A DNA stretch of 45,251 nucleotides from Escherichia phage vB_EcoS-101114BS4. Below are positions 15,908 through 27,662 of this stretch, one piece after another. The notes beneath the pieces were generated by a model. The model did no database searches and was not told the origin of the DNA. It saw only the letters and a program-made list of their open reading frames with translations. Positions within the stretch are counted from its first letter, which is position 1. Every line of letters starts with the position of its first letter. The stretch is from the sequence record NC_073061.1, one strand, 5' to 3'. A program made the position numbers and the translations under genes.

Positions 15908-15976
15908 AATAAGGTTTGTTTGAAATTCGCTGATACAATGTCAATCGGCAACTGCATAAAAAAAGGGGACTGCATA

Positions 15977-18622
15977 ATGGCAGATCAAGCAGCAGGCATC
16001 ACGCTAAAGGCGGATGTTGCACAAATCAGAACGGCGAATACGGTGCTGGACTCATTCGCGCAGAAGTCCGAAAACACCGAAAACAAGGTCAAGAAATTAA
16101 ACGACACCCTCGGCAACTCAAAAAAGGTGACGAGTGACGCCGCGGGCGGAATGGGGAAGCTGGCAACTGAATCGCAGCGGGCCGCCGATGGCATGACGAA
16201 GCAGGAGCGACTTGCCAACCGCTTAGGCATGTCGACCAAAAACCTGGGCTTCGCATCGCGTAACGCCGCATTTCAGTTACAAGATATCGCGGTCACGCTC
16301 GAGATGGGTATGCCGGTGCACCGCGTCATGATTCAGCAGCTACCGCAGTTAACCGGGGCATTCGGTGGACTGGGTAACACGCTGCGTTATGTTGCTGGCT
16401 TTCTCGGTCCGGTAGGGATCGGCCTTGCTGCGGTAACGGCAACGCTAGGCGTAGGCGTGGCTATTACGTCCCGCGCAGAAAACCAGGTAGCGGCGCTGAA
16501 TAAGACGCTGGCGCTATCCGGTAACATCTCGGGCCTCACCGCTAACCAGATCCTGGTGCTGTCGGAGAACGCCGAACGAATGGGCGGTTCATTCAGCAAG
16601 ACGCGTGACACAATTCAGGCGCTGGCGGCGGCAGGTGTGAAAGCGGGTGCTGACTTCGGCGCGCTGGCGAAAGTAGTGAACGACTTCGCGAAGGTGTCTA
16701 ATCAGCCGATCGCCGACGTGGTGGAGTCCATCTCCAAATTGTCCAACGACCCGGTGGGCGGCTTGCGCGCACTGGCGGACAAGTATCACGTCGTTACCGA
16801 GGCGCAGATCCAGCAGGTGCAGTCACTGGTTACGACGGGTCGCGAAACGGAAGCGGTTGCGCTGGCTAACAAAACCGCAGCGGCGTCGTTCACCAGCATG
16901 ACCAACGAGATCAAGTCCAACATGGGTACGCTTGAGCGGTCGATGAACGTCGTAACATCGGCAGCTAAATCTATGTGGGACGCCATCCTGGATGTGGGCC
17001 GCGCGCAGTCTTCGAATGAATCCGAGATGAAAGCGCGTGAATCATTGCAGCGCATGACCACGGCCTACTACGCTGAGATGAAAGCGGTCAACGCTGCCGG
17101 TGGGGTAATGACTGAGGCGCAGAAAGCACGAATTAACATGCTTTATAGCGAACTGGTTGCACAGGAAAAAGTAGTAGCGTCGCTTACCCTGCGCAACCGT
17201 GCGGAGCGTGACAACGCCAGCGCCGCGGACAAATCAGCGAAGGCGAACGAGGAGGCCAACCGCACCGCCCGCGACCGTGCCGCGTTCGAGAAGGAATTTG
17301 CCACCAACGCTAAGAAGCGCGCCGACGAGATCGCCCGCCTCAATTTGCTGAATAAGCGCGGTGTGATTAACGAGAAAGAACTGGCTGAGGCGGTGAAGCA
17401 GGTCAACGAGCGCTACAAAGACCCCGCACCGAAGAAGGCGGCAGCAATTCGCGTCGATGCCGGTGTTAAAATGCTGGAGGTCGCGCGGAGCGAACTGGCA
17501 CAGCTTAAGGAGTCCGGCAAGCAGATCGAGGCCAATGCCACAACGCAGACCCGCACGCAGCGCGCACAGGCCGCGTTGAATAAGCTGGTGGCGGATAATG
17601 AGCAGATGGTCGCAGCAAGCAAGGAGCGCACTCTAACGGCAGCAGAAAAGCAGCAAATGGCTGAGTTCGAGGCGGTTAAAGCGGTACGAGAGCAGATCGT
17701 CGAAGAAGCCAAATTGCTGGACGCGAAAGAGAAGCAGATCAAGGCACACGCCCAGGTCGAGGCATTCATCAAGAACCAGAATGCCGAGCTAAGGGCCACC
17801 GCTGCGGGCTATGCGCTTTCCACTCGCGAAGCGGCTAACCTGCGCGAAGAATTACAGCTAATTGACCGCCTTCAGCGTGTCGGGGCTAACGATACCGATA
17901 TCGACAACGCGGTGTCTAAACTGCGCGAAGTGCAGGAAGCACAGACCGGTGCTAACGCCTCGTTGTGGGATGGCTTCAGCCGCGGGCTTAAGGATAGCGT
18001 GGATGAAATGGGGAACGGCTACACGCAGATGACGTCACTCACAAAATTCACGTTCGGCGCTATGCAGGACACGATGAACGAGTTTTTCGAGACGGGCAAG
18101 CTGAACGCGAAGGATATGGTTAAGTCCATCCTGAGCGAGTTAATCAAGCTGGCTACCTCACAGGCGTTTAAGTCCATCGTTAGCGCTTTCGGTGGGGACG
18201 GCGGCAAAAACGGATTGTTCGGCGCTATCTTCTCTGGCCTTACTAAGAACGCGGACGGCGGAGCGTACGCAGGGGGCAATCTCGCGGCCTATTCGGGGCA
18301 AGTGGTAAGCCAGCCTACCTTTTTCAGTTATGGCGTTCAGGCGTTCGCTAAGGGCGCTGGATTGATGGGTGAGGCGGGGCCTGAGGCAATCATGCCACTG
18401 AAGCGCGGGCCGGATGGGAAACTGGGCGTTGCCGCTGCCGGTGCTGGTGGGGGTGGGATGATTGTAACAACCAACGTGAACATGGGTACCGGTAAGACGG
18501 ACACCAGTGTGAGCGGACCGGACCCACGCACCGCGCAGGCGTTCGGAAAGCAAATCACCGAGTCGGTCAAGGCCGAGATCGTGAAAGCGACGAAACCGGG
18601 TGGAGTACTTTACAAACGATGA
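15977..18622 (+). CDS. Tail tape measure protein
   Basis: About 880 aa, alpha-helical Ala/Gln/Glu-rich coiled-coil-like, Gly-rich C-terminal region; start chosen at ATG 15977 with AGGGGA RBS. Confidence 0.85.
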   Translation: MADQAAGITLKADVAQIRTANTVLDSFAQKSENTENKVKKLNDTLGNSKKVTSDAAGGMGKLATESQRAADGMTKQERLANRLGMSTKNLGFASRNAAFQLQDIAVTLEMGMPVHRVMIQQLPQLTGAFGGLGNTLRYVAGFLGPVGIGLAAVTATLGVGVAITSRAENQVAALNKTLALSGNISGLTANQILVLSENAERMGGSFSKTRDTIQALAAAGVKAGADFGALAKVVNDFAKVSNQPIADVVESISKLSNDPVGGLRALADKYHVVTEAQIQQVQSLVTTGRETEAVALANKTAAASFTSMTNEIKSNMGTLERSMNVVTSAAKSMWDAILDVGRAQSSNESEMKARESLQRMTTAYYAEMKAVNAAGGVMTEAQKARINMLYSELVAQEKVVASLTLRNRAERDNASAADKSAKANEEANRTARDRAAFEKEFATNAKKRADEIARLNLLNKRGVINEKELAEAVKQVNERYKDPAPKKAAAIRVDAGVKMLEVARSELAQLKESGKQIEANATTQTRTQRAQAALNKLVADNEQMVAASKERTLTAAEKQQMAEFEAVKAVREQIVEEAKLLDAKEKQIKAHAQVEAFIKNQNAELRATAAGYALSTREAANLREELQLIDRLQRVGANDTDIDNAVSKLREVQEAQTGANASLWDGFSRGLKDSVDEMGNGYTQMTSLTKFTFGAMQDTMNEFFETGKLNAKDMVKSILSELIKLATSQAFKSIVSAFGGDGGKNGLFGAIFSGLTKNADGGAYAGGNLAAYSGQVVSQPTFFSYGVQAFAKGAGLMGEAGPEAIMPLKRGPDGKLGVAAAGAGGGGMIVTTNVNMGTGKTDTSVSGPDPRTAQAFGKQITESVKAEIVKATKPGGVLYKR

Positions 18623-18629
18623 TAAAATG

Positions 18630-18657
18630 GCCCTCACATACAACGTGGGGGCTTTTT
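18630..18657 (+). terminator. Weak terminator-like hairpin after the tape measure gene
   Basis: gccctcac-atacaac-gtgggggc hairpin followed by ttttt, then ATG at 18659. Confidence 0.4.
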
Positions 18658-18658
18658 C

Positions 18659-19258
18659 ATGGCACAAGGTACAATCACACTAACGAACGGAAGTAAGACC
18701 GTCACGGGCGCGGGGGCGGCGTTCCTGAGCGAGATCGGGAAGGTCCGCGTATTTGCCCGCATCGACGGCAACGACTACACCGGCAAAATTGCAGCATTCA
18801 ACTCTGATACAGTCATCACCCTGGTGGATAACTGGGCCGGTCCGACAAAAGCCGGTGCAGCCTACGAGCTAATCGAAGCGCACGACCCGCGATCAAACGA
18901 ATGGCCCTATTACTGGCACATGCAATTGCAAGGTGGCGGCGACGTGCAGTTGGCTTTCCGGTCGGAGGAATTGCAATTCGGCAATGGCTACGGGCAGAAC
19001 ATCGCGGATGGCCCGAACGCCGAGACGAAACAGTTCCCCGTGCAATTCATCGGACTGACTACTGACAAGTGGTGCGACCCTAAACTGGTGTACAACTTCC
19101 TTCGCGGGCATTTCGTCAAGCCGTTTGTAGTCACCGCGCCTGATGGTGAAACAGGTTTATTCGTGGTCGAGCGTTCGAGCTTGTCGTACACTGACAACGG
19201 ACACTACACGGCAACGGTATCCGCCACCCTTAAGACTGCTATTGGATTTGTAAGATGA
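18659..19258 (+). CDS. Minor tail protein (lambda M position)
   Basis: 199-aa ORF directly after the tape measure gene; N-terminus MAQGTITLTNGSKTVTGAGAAF resembles the N-terminus of the fibre gene at 26136. Confidence 0.6.
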   Translation: MAQGTITLTNGSKTVTGAGAAFLSEIGKVRVFARIDGNDYTGKIAAFNSDTVITLVDNWAGPTKAGAAYELIEAHDPRSNEWPYYWHMQLQGGGDVQLAFRSEELQFGNGYGQNIADGPNAETKQFPVQFIGLTTDKWCDPKLVYNFLRGHFVKPFVVTAPDGETGLFVVERSSLSYTDNGHYTATVSATLKTAIGFVR

Positions 19259-20043
19259 ATAAACTCTATCGTGAGGCGACGCGCTTTGACCCATCGGGCC
19301 GCGTTCGCCTGATTCACATTGATGCGCAGGACGTGGAGCCGGGCGACGGCGCGATCGGCGCGGGCCACCATTATTTCCATTACTGCTTTATTCCGCACAC
19401 TGCCGAAGATATTGCTGCCGCTGGGGGTGACGAGGGCAAGCTAAAGCCAAAATCTATCTTCTTCGGCGGGCAGGAGTTCGAATTTTGGCCCTTCGATTTG
19501 TCTGGCCTCAACTTCTCCACATCAACGGCAGCAGAACCGCAGCTAACCATCGTCGATATTGGCGGGATTATCACCCGGCTGTCACTGAATCACGACCAGC
19601 TACTGGGCGCGAAGGTTGAAATCATCGACACGTTTGCGAAGTTCCTGGACAACGGGCCGGATCCAGACCCGACTCAGAAACGTGTCCAGGAGTTTTACAT
19701 CGACTCACAGGTCGGTCGCAATCCGGGCAAACAAATCACCTTCGCATTATCCTCACCCGCGGATATGGAGGGGCAAGTCGTCCCGCGCCGCCAAATCATG
19801 AATATGTGCGAATGGGCGCTCAACGGGAAGTATGCCAGCGGGGACGGGTGCACGTGGAACCTTGCACAACCAGGCATCAAGTATTATGACGAACGCGGTA
19901 ATGAAGTCATCGCGATGGAGATGGACCGGTGCGGCGGCTGTTTGTCCGACTGTTATCTTCGATTCGGACAAGGGCTTGCAGATCCGAAAGCGGCGGTACT
20001 GGATTACGGCGGCTTTCCGGGGTCCAGATTAATTAAGGGGTAG
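19255..20043 (+). CDS. Minor tail protein L-like
   Basis: 262 aa; C-terminal cysteine cluster (CEWALNG...DGCTWN...MDRCGGCLSDC) as in lambda gpL; synteny M-L-K-I-J. Confidence 0.65.
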   Translation: MNKLYREATRFDPSGRVRLIHIDAQDVEPGDGAIGAGHHYFHYCFIPHTAEDIAAAGGDEGKLKPKSIFFGGQEFEFWPFDLSGLNFSTSTAAEPQLTIVDIGGIITRLSLNHDQLLGAKVEIIDTFAKFLDNGPDPDPTQKRVQEFYIDSQVGRNPGKQITFALSSPADMEGQVVPRRQIMNMCEWALNGKYASGDGCTWNLAQPGIKYYDERGNEVIAMEMDRCGGCLSDCYLRFGQGLADPKAAVLDYGGFPGSRLIKG

Positions 20044-20045
20044 TC

Positions 20046-20786
20046 ATGTTAACGAAAAAGGTTAAGAGCGATATCGCCGCACACGTTGCGGCATGTCTGC
20101 CGGAAGAAGCGTGTGGCCTGGTTGTCATGGTGGGTCGTAAGCAAGTATTCATCCCGTGCCTGAACGTATTCGAAGACCCTACCGGCGCGCGCTCGCGTAA
20201 GGACGCGTTTACAATTAGTGATATGGCATGGATGGACGCCGAGGATATTGGTGACGTCGTGCGCGTAGTCCACTCACATCCAGGCCAGCGGGAGTTAACC
20301 CCGTCATTGGGCGACGTTAACGGATGCAACGGCAGCGGCATTGTGTGGACCATCGCCAATGAGTATGGCGACTTTATCGAGATCGACCCGGAAGACCCGC
20401 CGCTGGTAGGTCGCCGATTTGTTCTCGGAATTACGGATTGCTATGGCCTCGTCATGGACTGGCACAAAAAACAGGGCGTGATTCTGCCTGACTTCCGCGT
20501 GCCGTATAACTGGTGGGAAATGGGCGAAAGCCTGTACATGGATAACTGGTATGATGCGGGATTCAGGGAGTGCGAGGAGAATACACCGGGGGCAATGGTC
20601 ATCATGCAGATTAGCGCGCCAGTGCCTAACCATGCTGGGATCTTCCTTCCGGGCAACCAACTACTACACCATATCTACGGCAGCTTGTCGAGCGTGGTCC
20701 CCTTCCGGGCAGGATTTTTCCGCGACAATGTGGTTAAATGGGTGCGTCATAAAGACTTACCTGGGGATATTACAGAATGGCAATGA
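20046..20786 (+). CDS. Tail tip assembly protein K-like (MPN/JAMM plus NlpC/P60-like)
   Basis: VVRVVHSHPGQRELTPSLGD (JAMM-type HSHP motif) and a downstream Cys/His region; 246 aa; synteny. Confidence 0.75.
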   Translation: MLTKKVKSDIAAHVAACLPEEACGLVVMVGRKQVFIPCLNVFEDPTGARSRKDAFTISDMAWMDAEDIGDVVRVVHSHPGQRELTPSLGDVNGCNGSGIVWTIANEYGDFIEIDPEDPPLVGRRFVLGITDCYGLVMDWHKKQGVILPDFRVPYNWWEMGESLYMDNWYDAGFRECEENTPGAMVIMQISAPVPNHAGIFLPGNQLLHHIYGSLSSVVPFRAGFFRDNVVKWVRHKDLPGDITEWQ

Positions 20787-21394
20787 CCACATTTAAATTG
20801 TACGGCGTCTTAGGACGTCGTTTTGGTAAAGTGCATAAGCTGGACTGTTTCACACCTGGCGAGGGTATCACCGGCCTATGCGTGAAGTTACCAGGCTTAC
20901 AGGACTTTCTAATGTCGGCCCACCTGAACAGCATGATGTTCAAGGTGCGCAAGGGCAAGCACACAATGACCAGCTACGACGAGTTGGGCGAGTTCCACGG
21001 CGACCGCGTAGTTACCATCGCGCCAGTCATGACTGGTGCTAAAAGCGGACTTGGACAATTGCTGGCGGGCGTAGCTATCGTGGTGGCGTCGTTCTATACC
21101 GGTGGGCTTGCCGCTGCCGCTTTCGGTGCTTCCGCTGCGACCGCTGCCGCTATTGGAACGGCGACGTTTTCGTTCGGTATGTCGCTTGCGCTGGGCGGCG
21201 CTATGCAATTGCTGTCACCGCAGCCGAAAGGATTGCAGACACGGCAGGACGTGGATAACAAGGCGTCGTATGCGTTTGGCGGGCCTGTAAACACGACCGC
21301 GCAAGGTACGGCACTTGGTGTATTATGGGGCGAGCGTGAGATCGGCGGCGCTATTATTTCAGCCGGAATTGTAACCGAGGATTTGAACGAATGA
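20777..21394 (+). CDS. Tail assembly protein I-like
   Basis: 205-aa ORF with Gly/Ala-rich hydrophobic C-terminal half, between the K-like and J-like genes. Confidence 0.6.
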   Translation: MAMTTFKLYGVLGRRFGKVHKLDCFTPGEGITGLCVKLPGLQDFLMSAHLNSMMFKVRKGKHTMTSYDELGEFHGDRVVTIAPVMTGAKSGLGQLLAGVAIVVASFYTGGLAAAAFGASAATAAAIGTATFSFGMSLALGGAMQLLSPQPKGLQTRQDVDNKASYAFGGPVNTTAQGTALGVLWGEREIGGAIISAGIVTEDLNE

Positions 21395-24300
21395 CGATTG
21401 TATACGACGTCACGGGTCATAAAGGCGGCGGTGGCAAACAGCACACCCCACAGGAGACGCCTGATAGCCTGCATTCGCTGGCTAAAATCCGCATCTTGCT
21501 CGCACTGGGCGAGGGCGAATTTGAAGGCATTCCCGACCCTAACGAATTACGGCAGCGTGTATACCTGGACGGCACACCGATCCAGAACGCCGACCTGTCG
21601 GATAACTTCCCCGGCGCGCGTGTGGAGTTCCGCCCCGGCACGCAGCACCAGGATGTGATTCACGGTTTTTCAGCGGTGGAAAGCGAGCAAACAGTAGGCG
21701 TAAAACTGGAGAACGGCGCGCCGTGGGTGCGCCAGATTTCGGACACCAGTTTGGACGCCGTGCGCATTCGAATCGGTATTCCGGCCCTGTACACCAACGA
21801 AGATAATGGCGACCTGGTGGGCGGGCGCATCGACTATAAAATCGTTGTGTATACCGACAATGCTGATCCGCGGGAGTTTACATTCGCTGCCGTTGGTAAA
21901 ACAATGTCGCTGTATGAGCGCGATCACCGAATCGAATTACCGCCGAACGTTAACACCGGCTGGCGCGTGGAGGTGCACCGCACAACGGCAGACTCCACAT
22001 CGGCAAAAGTGGTCAACGATATTCAGGTACAATCCATTACTGAGATTATCGACGCCCGCCTGCGATACCCGCTAACCGCGCTGTTGTTCGTGGAGTTCGA
22101 TGCTAAGGCGTTCCAGAACATCCCGCGTGTGTCCATCAAGTGCAAAGGCCGCAAAGTGCTGGTGCCGAACAACTACGACCCGATTAATCATACCTATTCT
22201 GGTGACTGGGACGGCACATTTAAACGCGCCTGGACGGATAACCCTGCGTGGCACTGGTACGATATTTGTATTACTGAGCGCTTCGGCCTCGGTCGTCGTG
22301 TCAAGCCACAAATGCTAAACCGTTACGCACTCTACCAGATTTCGCAGCGCTGCGATCAGATGGTCAGTGACGGCAACGGCGGTCAGGAAATCCGATTTAA
22401 GAATGATATGTACATTCAGTCGCAGACCGACGCCTGGACCGTGCTGAAGGATTTAGCGGCTATCTTTGCGGGCATGACCTGGTGGGGCAACCAGATGTTG
22501 AATATCGTCAGTGACCAGCCTGTCGCAGCGGTATCGCATACTATCACCAACGCCTCGGTCATTGATGGTCGATTCGACTACGCATCGGGAAGCCAGAAAA
22601 CTCGGTATTCCACGTTCTCGGTAGCCTACGGCAACCCGAAGAACCACTATGATGACGCCATCGCAACGGGTCAACGTGTCGAACTGGTGCGCCGCCATAA
22701 GATTAACCGCCTTGATATCACGGCGATCGGCTGTACGCGAGAATCTGAAGCGCAACGCCGCGGGCACTGGGCGCTAATCTCCAACCAGCTTGACCAGCAA
22801 GTCAGCTTTAAGGTTGGCATGGAGGGGTTATTCTTTATTCCGGGGAGCGTAGTCGCGATCGCAGATACTAACATTTCTGGCGGCTTCGAGACACGCGGCG
22901 GACGCCTGTTGTCAGATCCAGGCACGCGCACCGTGCTGAACACGGACAGCGAAATCACGTTCCGCCCTGGTGATAAATTCCTGGTGCGCACCGATAGCGG
23001 TAATGTGGAGACTCGCGAGATTGCCAGCGTCAACGGCAACCAGGTCACGCTAAAAACCGCACTGGACTCCGACCCGATTCCCGATCAGCCGTTTTGCGTT
23101 GATGGCGATGATATCCAGTTGCAGAAGTTCCGCATCACAGACCTGGAATATGACGACGCTACCAGCACTTTTTCGGTGCGCGGGATTGAGTACAACGATA
23201 GCAAATATGATGCCGTTGATAATGGCGCGCGTCTTGATCCGGGTATCTTCACTCAAGTGCCGGACGGCGTGATGAAGGGGCCAGAATCCGTTACTATCAC
23301 CCCGTCGCAGATTTCATCGCAAGGCCAGCTAATCACCAACGTAGATATTGTTTTTCCGCCGGTGAAGGATGCCGTTGTGTACGAAATCCAGTGGCGACGT
23401 ACCAGCTTGCAGAATCTGGAAGTACAGTGGGGCAACGACTGGGTTAACATCCCCCGCACGGCGTCGAACGGCGCGCACATCCCGAACGTGTTTTCTGGTA
23501 ACTACCAGGCACGCGTCCGCGCTATCGGTATGGGCGAGATTTCAGCCCCGTGGGTGTCATCCGAAATCACGCCGGTCGAGGGCCGTCTTGGCGGGCTAAA
23601 CGCGCCAATCATTACCAACGCGATTTCGGGCCTTCATCAAATTTTGTGGAAGTGGAATCACAACAACGCCGCGACGGATATTTCGTATACCGAGCTTGAA
23701 GTGCGCAAGCTGGGTGAGACTGAATGGAAATTCTTGACCAACGTCCCATATCCGGGGTCAGACTATGCGCAAACGTCGCTGGAATTCGGGATCTACCAGC
23801 AGTTGCGCGCACGCGTAGCGGATAAAATCGGCAACCTGTCGGACTGGTCAGACCCGTTTGACGGTCAGGTGAGTGACAAAGTTGACGAGTACATGCAGGG
23901 GCTTGATGACGAGTTCTTGACTTCCGAGGACGGTAAACACTTCCAGGAAGCAATCGACACCATTCCACAAGGCATTTACGAGGCCATGCTCACCGACGCG
24001 CAGCAGTTGTTTAACGCCCGCTCCGAGTATCAAGGGATTTATGCGGAAATCAAGGTGGCGTACAACGTTGCGGTGGACGCAAACGAGGCCGTAGCGCAAC
24101 TGGAAACGCTGATCGGCACGCGCCTTGACGATGCGGAAGCGTCAATCCACACGTTGCAGACTGCGCAAAGCACGCACGAACAAGCGTTCGCCCAGTATCA
24201 ACAAACTGTTGCCGCTAAGTTCGGGGAACAGGAAGCTGCCATCCAGCAGGTACAAACGGCAACGGCAGACGTAGCGGGCGCGCTGGCTGAGTATAAGACC

Positions 24301-24837
24301 CAGGTAGCGGCACAGTTCGGTCAGCAGTCCGCAGCGATCGAGCAGAAGATGACGTCTTCGTTTAACCATGCTGGCGGTAGCGCCACCTACAGCCTTAAAG
24401 CTGGCGTGACGTATAACGGGGCTTACTATGATGCCGGTATGCAGCTTTCCGTTGTGGCGGAAGGTGGCGCGGTTAAATCTCGCATCGCGTTCAAGGCGGA
24501 CCAGTTCTACATCATGCACCCGTCGAATGGGTCGCTTTCGTCCGCGTTTATCGTCGACGGCGGTCAGGTGTACATTGACACGGCGCGCATCAAGAATGCG
24601 TCCATCAACTTCGCACAGATCACGGACACGCTGCAATCCAATAACTGGAATCCGGGTAACAGCGGCTGGCGAATCGCGAAGGATGGCGGGGCGGAGTTCA
24701 ACAACGTAACGGTACGCGGCAACTTGTTCGCGACTACGGGTAATTTCGGATTCTCCGGCGGGTCCGTTACGATCGACGCAACGGGCGTCAACGTGCCATT
24801 ACCTGGAGGGGGAAGGGTTAAAGTCGGGACGTGGTAA
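21391..24837 (+). CDS. Central tail fibre / host specificity protein J-like
   Basis: 1148-aa ORF at the J position of a lambda-like tail tip module. Confidence 0.8.
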   Translation: MTIVYDVTGHKGGGGKQHTPQETPDSLHSLAKIRILLALGEGEFEGIPDPNELRQRVYLDGTPIQNADLSDNFPGARVEFRPGTQHQDVIHGFSAVESEQTVGVKLENGAPWVRQISDTSLDAVRIRIGIPALYTNEDNGDLVGGRIDYKIVVYTDNADPREFTFAAVGKTMSLYERDHRIELPPNVNTGWRVEVHRTTADSTSAKVVNDIQVQSITEIIDARLRYPLTALLFVEFDAKAFQNIPRVSIKCKGRKVLVPNNYDPINHTYSGDWDGTFKRAWTDNPAWHWYDICITERFGLGRRVKPQMLNRYALYQISQRCDQMVSDGNGGQEIRFKNDMYIQSQTDAWTVLKDLAAIFAGMTWWGNQMLNIVSDQPVAAVSHTITNASVIDGRFDYASGSQKTRYSTFSVAYGNPKNHYDDAIATGQRVELVRRHKINRLDITAIGCTRESEAQRRGHWALISNQLDQQVSFKVGMEGLFFIPGSVVAIADTNISGGFETRGGRLLSDPGTRTVLNTDSEITFRPGDKFLVRTDSGNVETREIASVNGNQVTLKTALDSDPIPDQPFCVDGDDIQLQKFRITDLEYDDATSTFSVRGIEYNDSKYDAVDNGARLDPGIFTQVPDGVMKGPESVTITPSQISSQGQLITNVDIVFPPVKDAVVYEIQWRRTSLQNLEVQWGNDWVNIPRTASNGAHIPNVFSGNYQARVRAIGMGEISAPWVSSEITPVEGRLGGLNAPIITNAISGLHQILWKWNHNNAATDISYTELEVRKLGETEWKFLTNVPYPGSDYAQTSLEFGIYQQLRARVADKIGNLSDWSDPFDGQVSDKVDEYMQGLDDEFLTSEDGKHFQEAIDTIPQGIYEAMLTDAQQLFNARSEYQGIYAEIKVAYNVAVDANEAVAQLETLIGTRLDDAEASIHTLQTAQSTHEQAFAQYQQTVAAKFGEQEAAIQQVQTATADVAGALAEYKTQVAAQFGQQSAAIEQKMTSSFNHAGGSATYSLKAGVTYNGAYYDAGMQLSVVAEGGAVKSRIAFKADQFYIMHPSNGSLSSAFIVDGGQVYIDTARIKNASINFAQITDTLQSNNWNPGNSGWRIAKDGGAEFNNVTVRGNLFATTGNFGFSGGSVTIDATGVNVPLPGGGRVKVGTW

Positions 24838-24844
24838 ATGAGAA

Positions 24845-24866
24845 GGGGCCATCCGGCCCCTTTTTT
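24845..24866. terminator. Terminator (bidirectional) between convergent J-like and RBP-like genes
   Basis: ggggcc-atcc-ggcccc hairpin followed by tttttt; nearly identical sequence recurs at 27669..27690. Confidence 0.75.
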
Positions 24867-25830
24867 AATACATGTTAGGTATGACGAGTAACGGGGTTGG
24901 GACGGCTATGTTGCGGTTAGGCATCTGGAATTGCTGCCGTGAGTAGTTACCGATTACGCGATTACGCGCCGCACTAACCACGTTGCCCGCCATGCGTATC
25001 CCGTTCATTCGAACGTGGTTGTAGCCGCTGTTGTTCTCAATGAGCGCGCCGGTATATGAAAGCTGTACGAGGCTATTACCGATATTCTGACCGCCGGTGC
25101 CGATATTAATTACCGAATTGAGCACAAACGGCTTGTTAACGGTCGAGAACGTGACCTGCCCCTGGTTGTTCGTCATGGTGATACCAGTCCCCGGTGATGG
25201 AGGCGTATTGTTGAAGATAACCAGATCCAAGTCCACTTCGGCCCCGACGTCATCAATCCCGCCATAAGACGAATTGCGGACGATGATACTACTACCATCG
25301 AAGCCTACCGATACGTTGCCATTATCCCAGCGCGCGAACGGGATACCGCCCACAGGCAAAGGCATACTACCGTTCACGTGCACGCGCTGCGCGTAGCGGC
25401 AGGTCATTAACCGGGACACGTTGGAAATCGCGGTGAAGTCTGTCGAGTTCGCCACCAGTAAGCCCGCATTGCGTGACCCCACCGGCAGCACTTCCATAAT
25501 TATACCAGCCCATTGCGGGAGGCCGCTGTATGCGTTATGCGCGTCCGCGCCTCGAAGGATAATTCCACTATCCCCGTTGCGCTGTACCGACGTCACGTAG
25601 AACGGGTCGGGGAGAACCAGCGTCTGGTCGAACACCTCAAGCACTTCTACCGGGCGCGTGAGTGCAACGACAAGGTCCGACCCTGGTGTTAGCGGGGTAT
25701 TAATGGTCAGCGTCTTGTCGGACTGGCAGCGCTGATCAAACGTAGTGCAGTATGACGGAGCGCGCAAACCGGCAGTTATCTCCATAATCGGTCGTCCGTC
25801 GTTGTAGTCGATGAGTATTCCAGCGCCCAT
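24865..25830 (-). CDS. Putative receptor-binding protein (tail tip RBP)
   Basis: 321-aa Asn/Gly/Ser/Thr-rich protein antisense to and directly downstream of the J-like gene; start at MGAGILIDY with GGAG RBS; function inferred from position and composition only. Confidence 0.4.
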   Translation of the reverse strand: MGAGILIDYNDGRPIMEITAGLRAPSYCTTFDQRCQSDKTLTINTPLTPGSDLVVALTRPVEVLEVFDQTLVLPDPFYVTSVQRNGDSGIILRGADAHNAYSGLPQWAGIIMEVLPVGSRNAGLLVANSTDFTAISNVSRLMTCRYAQRVHVNGSMPLPVGGIPFARWDNGNVSVGFDGSSIIVRNSSYGGIDDVGAEVDLDLVIFNNTPPSPGTGITMTNNQGQVTFSTVNKPFVLNSVINIGTGGQNIGNSLVQLSYTGALIENNSGYNHVRMNGIRMAGNVVSAARNRVIGNYSRQQFQMPNRNIAVPTPLLVIPNMY

Positions 25831-25832
25831 TA

Positions 25833-26054
25833 TTACCACTCCCGTGATTTAACAGATACAGTGCCTGAGAAATTGCCGTCGCTATCGGCAGATAGGCCCG
25901 TGAAGCGCATGTCCACGTCCCCGGCAGGGACTTTTTGCCCGTCAACGTAGCGTAACATGCAGCTACCGTAAGCAACCGTAATGCAATCGCCGTTGTTGCG
26001 TTCTACAGCACAACCGGACAAAAGGACCGCACAAATCATAATTAAAGTTTTCAT
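25833..26054 (-). CDS. Small lipoprotein, candidate superinfection-exclusion protein (Cor/Llp-like by context)
   Basis: MKTLIMICAVLLSGCAV signal peptide with lipobox LSGC; 73 aa; immediately upstream of and overlapping the RBP-like gene. Confidence 0.55.
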   Translation of the reverse strand: MKTLIMICAVLLSGCAVERNNGDCITVAYGSCMLRYVDGQKVPAGDVDMRFTGLSADSDGNFSGTVSVKSREW

Positions 26055-26135
26055 GTTATCATCTCCTATATTTGGTTGAGTTTTAGTATTGCACCGCTCA
26101 ATCAAGAATGCAACCAATTTTAAGAGGATTCAGCT
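26055..26135. promoter_or_regulatory. Divergent control region between the lipoprotein and lateral fibre genes, with a TGCAACCAAT motif
   Basis: GCAACCAA at 26110-26117 and a degenerate copy (ttggttga) at 26073; 18 bp upstream of the ATG at 26136. Confidence 0.45.
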
Positions 26136-27662
26136 ATGGCAGCGGGTACTATCTTATTAACCAATAACAGCCGGTCGGTAACGGGGACCGGTACGACGTT
26201 TTCGGCGTTCAAAGCCGGTGATTTCCTTTCTGTCGTAGTGGGGCAAGTCCCCTACACTATCGCGGTTGAATCTATCGAAAGCAACACCGGGCTTACTTTG
26301 GTGCTGCCGTTTGACGGCCCAACGGCATCCGGCCTCGCATGGGATGGCGTTGCGCGCGATACCATGTCGCTGGCAACGATGGGCGTAACAGTCCAGGCAC
26401 AGAAAGCACTGCGTATGCTTATTGCGGACGAGAACAACTGGCGTGCAATCTTCGGCGACGCTGAAGAAATCACAGTTACGTTACCGAACGGCACAGTGAT
26501 GCAGGGTATGTCGTGGGGCTACCTGTCGCAGCTAATGAAGCAGATCGACCCGGTGGAAATGCTCAACCTGCAACAACAAGCCGCCGCATCTGAGGTCGCA
26601 GCGAAAGGATACCGCGACGAGGCCGAAGGCTTCAAGAACGATACTAATACCATCAAGACGCAAACCAACCAGATTAAGACTGATACGCAGGCGATCCACG
26701 ACGCCACCAATACGATCAAGACGCAAACCGACCAGATTAAGACCGATACGCAGGCCATCAAGGACCAGACCAACCAGATTAAGACTGACACTGGCGTTAT
26801 TCGAGATCAGGCCAACACGGCGAAGACTGACGCACAAGCGGCCCGAGATGCAGCGCAGGGATACCGCGACGAAGCCGAAGGCTTCAAAAACTCAATCGAC
26901 CCCACTAAGTTCATGCAGAAGTCGCAGAACCTGGCGGACGTTGCCGACAAGTACGCCGCGCGCAACATTCTGGGGGTGGGCGATGACAGTATCGTTAAAC
27001 ACGCAACATTACGCCTGAACGGTGGCGAATCATTAACATTCAATGAAGTGGAGGCTAACGGCTTAATTCTATCAAACGCCTCGATGGGAATCGACAATTG
27101 GGTAGGCTTCACCATGCATAAATGGTACGCCGACTGGACACGCGCAGGAATTGTGCGTGCGGGTGACACCCACGTGTCAGACTACCGCATCCACGTGTGG
27201 AAGAATGGGGCTACTGAGGCGCTATTCCGCTTCCTGCCGGACGGGCGTCTGATTCAGGGTAACAGCGGCAACCCATCGTCGGCGGAGTTTCAGAAAGCAC
27301 CGCTATCAGACCGGGACGTGAAGAAAGAAATCCAATACACGGACGGCGCGGAAAGTTACAACCGAGTACGGCAATGGCTACCAGCAATGTTTAAGTATAA
27401 GGAGTCGGACGTACAGCGTTACGGCCTTATCGCGCAGGACCTGGCCATGATTGACCCGGAATATGTGCACTTGCTGCCAGGACACGGAATCTACGAGGAC
27501 GTTGTTGTTGGCGTGGACGAGGAAGGGAACGAGATTGTCGAGCAAAAGGAGATCGGATACACCGACGATGTGCTGTCGCTTGACAGTAACGTGCTGTTGA
27601 TGGATCTATGCGCCGCCTTCGTTCACCTGTTGCAGAAAGTAGAAAAGCTGGAAGGTAAGTAA
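26136..27662 (+). CDS. Lateral tail fibre with C-terminal intramolecular chaperone-like domain
   Basis: 508 aa; shaft repeats (TNTIKTQTNQIKTDTQAI); C-terminal segment with SDRDVKKEIQYTD...YGLIAQDL resembles the autoproteolytic chaperone domain of phage fibres and endosialidases. Confidence 0.65.
   Translation: MAAGTILLTNNSRSVTGTGTTFSAFKAGDFLSVVVGQVPYTIAVESIESNTGLTLVLPFDGPTASGLAWDGVARDTMSLATMGVTVQAQKALRMLIADENNWRAIFGDAEEITVTLPNGTVMQGMSWGYLSQLMKQIDPVEMLNLQQQAAASEVAAKGYRDEAEGFKNDTNTIKTQTNQIKTDTQAIHDATNTIKTQTDQIKTDTQAIKDQTNQIKTDTGVIRDQANTAKTDAQAARDAAQGYRDEAEGFKNSIDPTKFMQKSQNLADVADKYAARNILGVGDDSIVKHATLRLNGGESLTFNEVEANGLILSNASMGIDNWVGFTMHKWYADWTRAGIVRAGDTHVSDYRIHVWKNGATEALFRFLPDGRLIQGNSGNPSSAEFQKAPLSDRDVKKEIQYTDGAESYNRVRQWLPAMFKYKESDVQRYGLIAQDLAMIDPEYVHLLPGHGIYEDVVVGVDEEGNEIVEQKEIGYTDDVLSLDSNVLLMDLCAAFVHLLQKVEKLEGK
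26608..26892 (+). repeat. In-frame tandem repeats inside the fibre gene
   Basis: 63-bp unit (accatcaagacgcaaaccaaccagattaagactgatacgcaggcg...) repeated about 2.6 times, flanked by two copies of ggataccgcgacga(g/a)gccgaaggcttcaa. Confidence 0.8.

What the first reader, a model, noticed from the sequence alone, without database searches (positions are those of the whole stretch)
18659..26300. Shared N-terminal domain between the M-position minor tail protein and the lateral tail fibre
MAQGTITLTNGSKTVTGAGAAF...DYTGKIAAFNSDTVITL (18659 gene) and MAAGTILLTNNSRSVTGTGTTF...PYTIAVESIESNTGLTL (26136 gene) share a recognisable N-terminal domain of about 55 aa, while the DNA is diverged. This suggests a common docking module, or an ancient duplication that lets fibres be swapped onto one anchor.
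Basis: seen in the sequence. Interest (0 to 1): 0.4.

Follow-up and report, generated by a model that had tools for sequence, protein, structure and literature searches.

The report
Fibre-anchor barrel duplicated onto tail ring

Summary
The gpM-like distal tail protein (Dit, 18659-19258) and the lateral tail fibre (26136-27662) share about 72 N-terminal residues. BLASTP gives 37% identity, E=2e-8; z is about 15 against shuffles; family profiles match at E=1e-19. The window is a Dhillonvirus, 99.7% identical to phage WF5505.

The domain is a six-stranded beta-barrel found in 3781 protein clusters, nearly always at residue 1 of a tail fibre. It is homologous to the F-type pyocin side-fibre N-domain (profile E=3e-9). 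Published cryo-EM structures show that domain clamping the fibres onto the coiled-coil shaft of the central fibre.

The Dit copy is a fusion seen only in Dhillonvirus:
- The nearest Dit cores are 122-125 aa and lack it.
- N15, ES18, KW1E_UTAR, EhrS_49, pAEv1818 and the F-pyocins have barrel fibres but short Dits.
- The Dit copy lacks the fibre's conserved stem helix and its K-A-G-D-F contact motif.
- It evolves four times faster than the Dit core, yet under purifying selection (dN/dS 0.135).
- It does not co-vary with the fibre barrel.

My reading: the fibre barrel is the anchor and most likely docks on the gpJ shaft. The Dit barrel is an exapted peripheral decoration. A hybrid Dit-fibre collar is not excluded. 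This is a new variant of known kinds, of moderate interest.

The parts
18659..18883 (+). N-terminal beta-barrel (aa 1-75) of the distal tail protein. It is a paralogue of the fibre-anchor barrel.
   Evidence: BLASTP E=2e-8 to the fibre N-terminus. It matches the N-termini of tail-fibre PHROGs 1980, 28473 and 17834. AF2 with a 26-sequence alignment gives pLDDT 83 and six strands. No Pfam family covers it.
18884..18913 (+). Short linker (aa 76-85, HDPRSNEWPY) between the barrel and the Dit core.
   Evidence: It lies between the end of the barrel homology (about aa 72-75) and the start of the Pfam Phage_min_tail match at aa 86. AF2 pLDDT drops to 45-70 here.
18914..19258 (+). Dit core (lambda gpM / Phage_min_tail fold), aa 86-199 plus the stop codon.
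   Evidence: Pfam PF05939 scores 44.1 bits (cut-off 39) over aa 86-187. It matches the T1 Dit 9l9p_H at E=3.7e-12, and about 95% identity to PDB 23gd_B 'Distal tail protein gp20' over the whole protein. The closest relatives outside Dhillonvirus are 122-125 aa proteins consisting of this core only.
26136..26360 (+). N-terminal beta-barrel (aa 1-75) of the lateral tail fibre: the fibre-anchor barrel.
   Evidence: It belongs to a family of 3781 clusters, mostly at aa 1-75 of 250-800 aa proteins. A profile of the family matches the F2-pyocin side fibre 25ve_A aa 5-77 at E=3.4e-9. The same domain starts the fibres of N15 gp25 and ES18 gp33.
26361..26525 (+). Conserved stem helix and following strand (aa 76-130) that complete the fibre's constant attachment module. 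This part is absent from the Dit.
   Evidence: It is nearly invariant across 18 Dhillonvirus fibres and recognisable in KW1E_UTAR, N15 and ES18 (motif ALR..x..NW..F, ITVTLP.G..F.GPSW).
26553..26900 (+). Coiled-coil shaft of the fibre (about aa 140-255).
   Evidence: Heptad-like repeats IKTQTNQIKTDTQAI. Weak matches to coiled-coil Pfam families over aa 159-255 and to the T7 gp17 shaft, aa 153-250, E=0.016.
26961..27662 (+). Exchangeable distal part of the fibre, with a C-terminal intramolecular chaperone (Peptidase_S74 at aa 391-444).
   Evidence: Pfam PF13884 scores 30.6 bits (cut-off 22). Similarity to other Dhillonvirus fibres is lost after about aa 260-310, apart from a 27-34% identical C-terminal domain.
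23968..24360 (+). [quoted passage not shown] This is the inferred docking site of the fibre module.
   Evidence: gpJ aa 893-1099 aligns with the F2-pyocin central fibre aa 978-1184 (E=1.8e-18) and with T1 gp33 (E=9e-29). The segment AVAQLETLIGTRLDDAEA stays conserved in KW1E_UTAR while its flanks diverge. Docking itself is inferred from the F-pyocin structures and was not tested.
21391..24837 (+). gpJ-like central tail fibre / hub (1148 aa); context.
   Evidence: Pfam FNIII-A_GpJ, Phage-tail_3 and Phage_Tail_Tip. It matches PDB 23gd_D 'J-like tail tip protein gp24' and the F2-pyocin tail fibre at E=1.4e-225.
24865..26117 (-). Receptor-binding locus between gpJ and the fibre: a DUF6453 protein (24865-25839) and a Cor-like lipoprotein (25833-26117); context.
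   Evidence: Pfam DUF6453 at E=2.7e-118 and Phage_lipoprotein at E=5.7e-21. The BASEL papers describe such loci downstream of gpJ as the terminal-receptor module (PMC8594841).

Best explanation
The two proteins carry paralogous copies of one small six-stranded beta-barrel.

Fibre copy. In the fibre the barrel is the first part of a constant attachment module of about 130 aa: barrel, stem helix, then a strand. Variable shafts and tips are recombined onto this module. By homology with F-type pyocin side fibres, this module most likely clamps fibre trimers around the trimeric helical shaft of the central fibre gpJ (about aa 860-990), not onto the Dit.

Dit copy. This is a gene fusion found here only in Dhillonvirus. 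A fibre-type barrel, without its stem, was joined to the N-terminus of an ordinary gpM-type Dit of about 120 aa. In phage lambda the Dit N-terminus lies on the outer face of the ring at the tube-tip junction. Six barrels should therefore project from the ring as a peripheral decoration. This would be comparable to the OB-like extra domains of the T5 and Chi Dits, with a ligand of its own that is still unknown.

Shown: the homology, the fold, the distribution, the lineage restriction, and the selection regime.
Inferred: docking on the gpJ shaft, the position of the Dit barrel on the ring, and its role as a decoration.
For: - Homology.
- Family: 3781 clusters, and 131 of 153 retrieved proteins (150 listed hits plus earlier hits) carry the domain at their N-terminus. 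BFVD hits are tail fibres, apart from one Dhillonvirus-type Dit.
- Pyocin link: profile E=3.4e-9 to the F2 side fibre aa 5-77. Three structural papers place this domain on the central-fibre coiled coil.
- Shaft: the window's gpJ shaft and tip are homologous to the pyocin central fibre.
- Fusion is lineage-specific: the closest Dit cores are 122-125 aa. Among the 150 best hits listed of 3781 only the Dhillonvirus cluster has a Dit core. Among 50,697 phage records the Dit barrel matches Dits only in Dhillonvirus-type records.
- Barrel fibres occur without a Dit barrel in N15, ES18, KW1E_UTAR, EhrS_49 and pAEv1818.
- The Dit copy lacks the stem. It also lacks the K-A-G-D-F motif, whose K aligns with pyocin R30, a published shaft contact (PMC12874032).
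- Selection: the barrel has 46/82 variable sites and dN/dS 0.135. The core has 18/117 and 0.032, at equal dS.
- Position: lambda gpM residues K2 and W6 contact the Stf collar, so the Dit N-terminus is external (PMC12617516).
Against: - No structure or interaction test of the Dhillonvirus fibre was available. PDB 23gd holds the Dit and gpJ but no fibre chain, and I could not see its coordinates or find its paper.
- The pyocin homology covers the barrel only, not the stem.
- The pyocin kink/acidic docking site lies upstream of the region that aligns with gpJ, so the equivalent site in gpJ is not identified.
- The Dit N-terminus sits where lambda and T5 attach their fibre collars. This fits a docking role as well as it fits a decoration.
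- Homologous barrels pack side by side in the pyocin ring, so Dit-fibre barrel contacts are physically plausible.
- The absence of co-variation is weak evidence, because interface residues could be among the conserved ones.
Confidence: 0.5

Rival explanations
1. Hybrid collar or socket. The six Dit barrels are the docking partners of the fibre barrels. Fibre barrels (for example two per trimer, as in pyocins) slot between the Dit barrels to complete a collar at the tube-Dit junction. The Dit has thereby built in half of a fibre collar. This is the strong form of the first reader's 'one anchor' idea.
For: - Paralogy of the two barrels.
- In pyocins the homologous barrels pack laterally into a pseudo-sixfold ring (PMC13455828).
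- The Dit N-terminus is at the site where lambda Stf forms its 12-mer collar (PMC12617516).
- Purifying selection shows that the Dit barrel is functional.
Against: - Fibres with this barrel exist in at least five phage lineages and in F-pyocins whose Dits lack it.
- There is no co-variation. bov22_1, L013 and L020 have divergent Dit barrels with ordinary fibre barrels, and the window's clade shows the reverse.
- PDB 23gd contains the Dit but no fibre chain.
- The most conserved part of the fibre module is the stem, which has no Dit counterpart.
Confidence: 0.25
2. The Dit barrel binds a coiled coil other than gpJ, as its pyocin homologue does. For example, it may grip the fibre's own shaft to stow or orient the fibres until the host is contacted.
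For: The pyocin barrel binds a trimeric coiled coil (three papers). The window's fibre has a coiled-coil shaft of about 115 aa.
Against: This is purely analogical. The shaft-contact motif K-A-G-D-F is not kept in the Dit copy, and there are no data on fibre geometry.
Confidence: 0.07
3. The similarity is chance, compositional bias, or a recent gene conversion between the two genes.
For: Both N-termini are rich in G, T, S and A.
Against: There were 0 exceedances in 15,000 composition-preserving shuffles, z about 15, and hhalign gives E=1e-19. The DNA is only 48% identical, 37% at third positions, so the event is old. Both copies are conserved across about 150 Dhillonvirus genomes.
Confidence: 0.01

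Closest known systems
N-terminal attachment domain of F-type pyocin side fibres (PyoF13 / PA0643 / PA0646; PDB 25ve, 25vj)
   Same: It is homologous by sequence profile (E=3.4e-9, aa 5-77). It sits at the extreme N-terminus of a trimeric side fibre and is about 75 aa. The K/R-x-G-D-x-F motif is conserved in the window's fibre. The accompanying central fibre is also homologous.
   Different: The pyocin stem is not detectably similar to the phage stem. Docking on the shaft is shown for pyocins only. No pyocin Dit carries the barrel: the pyocin Dit chain is 113 aa.
Side tail fibres of N15 (gp25), ES18 (gp33), HK225, phiES15, SPN3UB and Oslo
   Same: They have the same barrel + stem + strand module, 45-50% identical over about 106 aa. 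The fibre gene lies downstream of gpJ and of the receptor/Cor locus.
   Different: Their Dits are 115 aa with no barrel. The distal parts of the fibres differ.
Decorated Dits: T5 pb9 (OB-fold domain B) and the phage Chi Dit
   Different: Here the barrel is N-terminal rather than C-terminal, and it has clear sequence homology to the same phage's fibre. The function of the T5 and Chi domains is also unsettled.
Lambda Stf N-terminal collar domain and the T5 p132 / DT57C LtfC collars
   Same: These are fibre-anchoring domains arranged around the tube-Dit junction, which is where the Dhillonvirus Dit N-terminus should lie (PMC12617516).
   Different: They are Ig-like domains in 12-mer rings. No sequence match to the barrel was found. 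They are separate from the Dit polypeptide.
PDB 23gd, 'Distal tail protein gp20' and 'J-like tail tip protein gp24'
   Same: These are about 95% identical to the window's Dit and 1148-aa gpJ, so this very protein has a solved structure.
   Different: I could not read the coordinates or find the paper. No fibre chain is deposited.

Membership tests
Fibre-anchor barrel family (F-pyocin side-fibre N-domain type) | Sequence homology to the solved pyocin side-fibre N-domain | tested here: met
   A 26-sequence profile containing both window copies matches 25ve_A aa 5-77 at E=3.4e-9. A fibre-only profile gives E=4.8e-7. The Dit alone gives E=0.018.
Fibre-anchor barrel family (F-pyocin side-fibre N-domain type) | Small all-beta barrel fold of about 75 aa | tested here: met
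Fibre-anchor barrel family (F-pyocin side-fibre N-domain type) | Located at residue 1 of a trimeric fibre and followed by a stem helix | tested here: met
   This holds for the fibre (26136-27662): barrel aa 1-75, then the conserved stem aa 76-105. It does not hold for the Dit copy, which is followed by a 10-aa linker and a tail-tube-fold core.
Fibre-anchor barrel family (F-pyocin side-fibre N-domain type) | Docks on the coiled-coil shaft of the central fibre | not testable with these tools
   No multimer prediction or coordinates were available. The only indirect support is the homologous gpJ shaft and the conserved K26, which aligns with pyocin R30.
Distal tail protein, lambda gpM type (Pfam PF05939) | Match to Phage_min_tail above the gathering score | tested here: met
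   44.1 bits against a cut-off of 39, aa 86-187.
Distal tail protein, lambda gpM type (Pfam PF05939) | Gene lies between the tape measure gene and the gpL homologue | tested here: met
   TMP 15920-18622, Dit 18659-19258, gpL 19255-20043.
Distal tail protein, lambda gpM type (Pfam PF05939) | Forms the hexameric ring under the tail tube in the virion | not tested
   This rests on the depositor's name for the about 95% identical PDB chain 23gd_B and on the homologous T1 gp37 (PMC11945409).
Lambda Stf-type Ig-like collar domain | Sequence or fold similarity to the Stf N-terminal collar domain | tested here: not met
Lateral tail fibre with intramolecular chaperone | C-terminal Peptidase_S74 domain | tested here: met
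   PF13884 scores 30.6 bits against a cut-off of 22, aa 391-444.

The most novel reading that the evidence does not exclude
The Dit-borne barrels and the fibre barrels co-assemble into one mixed collar around the tube-tip junction: six barrels tethered to the Dit plus six contributed by three fibre trimers. The structural ring protein would then have absorbed half of its fibre's anchoring ring. It would be a sequence-traceable intermediate between separate fibre collars (lambda Stf, T5 p132) and decorated Dits (T5 pb9).
Probability: 0.2. Interest if true: 0.6.

Novelty: new variant of a known kind. Interest (0 to 1): 0.35.

Why it matters
Side-fibre attachment is what allows phage host range to be re-engineered by swapping fibres, so the anchor has to be known. 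This locus shows that the widespread fibre-anchor barrel of small siphophages and F-pyocins has also been recruited onto a Dit. It gives the first sequence-level link (rather than fold-level only) between fibre anchors and Dit decoration domains. If the Dit copy takes part in docking, Dhillonviruses would show a third attachment mode besides the Dit collar and the central-fibre shaft. If it does not, it is a clean case of a fibre 5' end being exapted as a new surface domain. Either way, the constant module (aa 1-130, with similarity running on to about aa 260-310) marks the boundary for fibre grafting in this genus.

Tried and rejected
- Single-sequence AF2 of the whole Dit gave pLDDT 33 and was discarded.
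- The search for homologous proteins with the 76-aa two-sequence alignment returned only two fragments, because the word index favours targets of similar length. I used the exhaustive representative search instead.
- I looked for the paper behind PDB 23gd by PDB id, molecule names and phage names. The only 'gp20 distal tail protein' paper found (Avs-1, PMC13612043) describes an unrelated phage.
- Co-variation between the Dit barrel and the fibre barrel across 19 loci showed no pattern. Co-variation with the gpJ shaft is confounded by clade structure and physical linkage.
- I tried to locate the pyocin kink/acidic docking site in gpJ by alignment. The alignable region starts downstream of it, so the candidate motifs in gpJ (the acidic GLDDEF stretch, IPQGIY, LIGTRLDD) remain guesses.
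- A second local match (Dit aa 124-180 against fibre aa 422-478) was examined and put down to chance.
- T1 was scanned for the barrel and gave no significant HMM hit. Other Drexlerviridae fibres (Rtp, Jk06, Tls; not T1) do match at fold level.


Full report
**What the window is.**
- The 10 kb around the finding is 99.7% identical to Escherichia phage vB_EcoS_WF5505 and 88-98% identical to many other Dhillonvirus genomes.
- The plus strand carries a lambda-type tail-tip module:
  - tape measure protein, 15920-18622;
  - a gpM-like distal tail protein (Dit), 18659-19258;
  - gpL, 19255-20043;
  - gpK, 20046-20786;
  - gpI, 20777-21394;
  - a 1148-aa gpJ, 21391-24837.
- On the minus strand lie a DUF6453 protein and a Cor-like lipoprotein (24865-26117). 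The BASEL papers treat this as the terminal-receptor locus (PMC8594841).
- The 508-aa lateral tail fibre follows at 26136-27662. It ends in a Peptidase_S74 intramolecular chaperone.

**Checking the observation.**
- The two proteins align without gaps over residues 1-70: 26 identities, BLASTP E=2e-8.
- The Smith-Waterman score is 104, against 26 +/- 5 for 15,000 shuffles, none of which reached it.
- With family profiles (Dhillonvirus Dit N-domains against diverse fibre N-domains), hhalign gives 99.2% probability and E=1.2e-19 over 72 columns.
- The DNA is only 48% identical, 37% at third codon positions. This is an old relationship, not a recent conversion.
- Pfam places the Dit fold (Phage_min_tail) at aa 86-187 only, so residues 1-85 are an add-on.
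- An HMM scan of all six frames finds no third copy in the window.

**What the domain is.**
- An exhaustive HMMER search of 1.84 billion representative proteins finds 3781 clusters at E<=1e-3 and 514 at E<=1e-10.
- PHROGs and the phage records call these proteins tail fibres.
- tblastn against 50,697 phage genomes finds the fibre version at the start of the fibres of all Dhillonviruses. It also finds it in N15 gp25, ES18 gp33 (a virion protein), HK225, phiES15, SPN3UB, Oslo, Erwinia EhrS_49, and Aeromonas and Pseudomonas phages.
- With a 26-sequence alignment, AlphaFold2 gives a confident six-stranded barrel, pLDDT 83.
- BFVD returns a Dhillonvirus-type Dit first and then tail fibres, including Drexlerviridae fibres at weaker scores.

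**The link to solved structures.**
- Three independent cryo-EM studies show what this pyocin domain does (PMC13455828; bioRxiv 10.64898/2026.02.24.707460; PMC12874032):
  - Three fibre trimers dock on a kinked, acidic stretch of the trimeric coiled-coil shaft of the central fibre.
  - The stem helices pack into grooves of the shaft.
  - Arg30, Lys80 and Arg87 make the contacts.
- The window's gpJ is homologous to the pyocin central fibre over the hub (E=1.4e-225). It is also homologous over the second half of the shaft plus the tip domain (E=1.8e-18).
- In the fibre, the residue aligned with pyocin R30 is K26, inside a K-A-G-D-F motif that is conserved across the family.
- The fibre's barrel is followed by a stem (aa 76-105) that is almost invariant in 18 Dhillonvirus fibres. 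The stem is recognisable in KW1E_UTAR, N15 and ES18.
- The pyocin homology itself does not extend into the stem.

**The Dit copy is a lineage-specific fusion.**
- The closest Dit cores outside the genus (55-65% identity) are 122-125 aa proteins with no N-domain.
- Of the 150 best family representatives, only the Dhillonvirus cluster contains a Dit core.
- In the phage database, the Dit barrel finds Dits only in Dhillonvirus-type records, a few of them labelled with other hosts, and otherwise fibres.
- Conversely, several phages have barrel-bearing fibres but short Dits:
  - N15, Dit 115 aa;
  - ES18, 115 aa;
  - KW1E_UTAR, 117 aa;
  - EhrS_49, 116 aa;
  - pAEv1818, 113 aa.
- The pyocin Dit chain is also short, 113 aa.
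- So fibres of this type do not need a Dit-borne barrel in order to attach.

**How the Dit copy evolves.**
- I compared 18 distinct Dit sequences from 19 related loci.
- The barrel has 46 of 82 variable sites; the core has 18 of 117.
- dN/dS is 0.135 for the barrel and 0.032 for the core, at the same dS (about 0.6).
- The barrel is therefore functional but about four times less constrained, as expected for an exposed domain.
- It keeps the structural glycines and turns of the family. It has I-G-K-V-R where fibres have K-A-G-D-F, and it has no stem.
- Divergent Dit barrels (bov22_1, L013, L020) occur with ordinary fibre barrels. The window's clade has a divergent fibre barrel with an ordinary Dit barrel. 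No co-variation is visible.

**Most likely mechanism.**
- The fibre barrel, stem and strand form the constant attachment module. The similarity among Dhillonvirus fibres runs on to about aa 260-310 and then gives way to unrelated distal parts, with total lengths of 508-893 aa. [quoted passage not shown]
- By homology I infer that this module docks on the gpJ shaft, as in the pyocins.
- The Dit barrel was probably captured from a fibre 5' end. It now decorates the outside of the Dit ring.
- In Ur-lambda the first residues of gpM (K2, W6) are on the outer surface and touch the Stf collar (PMC12617516). An N-terminal fusion should therefore project from the tube-tip junction.
- The ligand of the Dit barrel is unknown.
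- I give this composite reading about 0.5.

**Rivals.**
- The main rival (about 0.25) is that the Dit barrels are docking partners of the fibre barrels and form a mixed collar.
  - For it: the paralogy, the lateral packing of homologous barrels in pyocins, and the position at the canonical collar site.
  - Against it: the phages that have the fibre but not the Dit barrel, the lack of co-variation, and the absence of a fibre chain in PDB 23gd.
- A stowing role, in which the Dit barrel grips the fibre's own coiled coil, is possible but unsupported.
- Chance similarity is excluded.

**Comparison with the known, and novelty.**
- The fibre is an ordinary member of the barrel-anchored side-fibre family.
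- The Dit is an ordinary gpM-type Dit plus an extra domain, as in T5 pb9 or Chi.
- What is unusual is that the decoration is recognisably the same domain as the phage's own fibre anchor.
- PMC13455828 had already noted, at fold level, that the pyocin fibre barrel resembles the T5 Dit decoration. Here the link is visible in sequence.
- A structure of an about 95% identical Dit exists (23gd). I could not find its paper, so part of this may already be described.
- I rate it a new variant of a known kind, interest 0.35.

**Limits.**
- No multimer modelling, no coordinates and no experiments were available.
- Only the best 150 of 3781 family members could be inspected for other Dit fusions.
- The AF2 model is of the Dit copy only.

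Noticed in passing
Proteins P0013-P0017, P0028, P0034-P0040, P0043, P0068, P0106, P0108, P0120, P0150 (not in the window): The same barrel occurs as 3-13 tandem internal copies in very large proteins (about 640-2900 aa). These also carry PKD, Peptidase_C25, SdrD_B or NHL domains, so they look like cellular surface proteins rather than phage fibres. The copies give weak Pfam hits to Phage_attach (lambda gpFII) and to EFP_N KOW-like barrels.
   Followed up: partly
window 19028-19198 (Dit aa 124-180) and 27399-27569 (fibre aa 422-478): There is a second local similarity between the Dit core and an insertion in the fibre's S74 chaperone domain: 36% identity over 59 columns, BLASTP E=2e-4, and 0 of 3000 shuffles reach its score of 60. 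Profile-profile comparison of the two families gives no support (hhalign probability 0.03%). I treat it as chance, but it is unusually strong for that.
   Followed up: yes
window 18716-18727 (Dit aa 20-23) and 19255-20043 (gpL), compared with L021 (WF5505): In a region that is otherwise 99.5-100% identical to WF5505 at protein level, WF5505 reads RRSW where the window and all other Dhillonviruses read A/T-A-F-L. This looks like a compensated frameshift pair or a sequencing error in WF5505. gpL is only 92.7% identical, which suggests a small mosaic patch.
   Followed up: partly
window 24085-24141 (gpJ aa about 899-917); L019 5436-8993: The shaft segment AVAQLETLIGTRLDDAEA stays almost unchanged in the distant phage KW1E_UTAR, while the flanking shaft diverges. 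KW1E_UTAR also carries a 42-aa insertion of DAQGNRI-like repeats further down the shaft. This segment is a candidate functional site, possibly for fibre docking or as a hinge.
   Followed up: partly
L024 8797-10977 and 10935-13841 (Pseudomonas phage nickie): Two adjacent proteins both begin with the barrel: a 'lipase' of 727 aa (E=9e-7) and a 969-aa tail fibre (E=7e-15). As with the two pyocin side-fibre isoforms, one phage appears to hang different proteins, here including an enzyme, on the same anchor.
   Followed up: partly
L001 (N15), L002 (ES18), L022 (EhrS_49), L023 (pAEv1818), L025 (T1): These phages share the gene order gpJ, a protein of about 100 aa annotated 'outer membrane protein', a protein of about 220 aa annotated 'membrane associated protein', then (except pAEv1818) Cor and, in N15, ES18 and EhrS_49, the fibre (in T1 the fibre gene lies elsewhere, on the other strand). 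The order parallels the pyocin order of central fibre, PyoF11, PyoF12, side fibre. In the pyocins PyoF11/12 sit on the tip of the central fibre (PMC12874032). Dhillonvirus replaces the pair with a minus-strand DUF6453 protein and a lipoprotein.
   Followed up: no
window 18630-18658: A GC-rich hairpin followed by a T run (gccc..n..gggggc ttttt) lies between the tape measure stop codon and the Dit start codon. The WF5505 record annotates the same spot as a putative terminator. This is odd inside a tail operon and would lower Dit expression relative to the tape measure protein.
   Followed up: no
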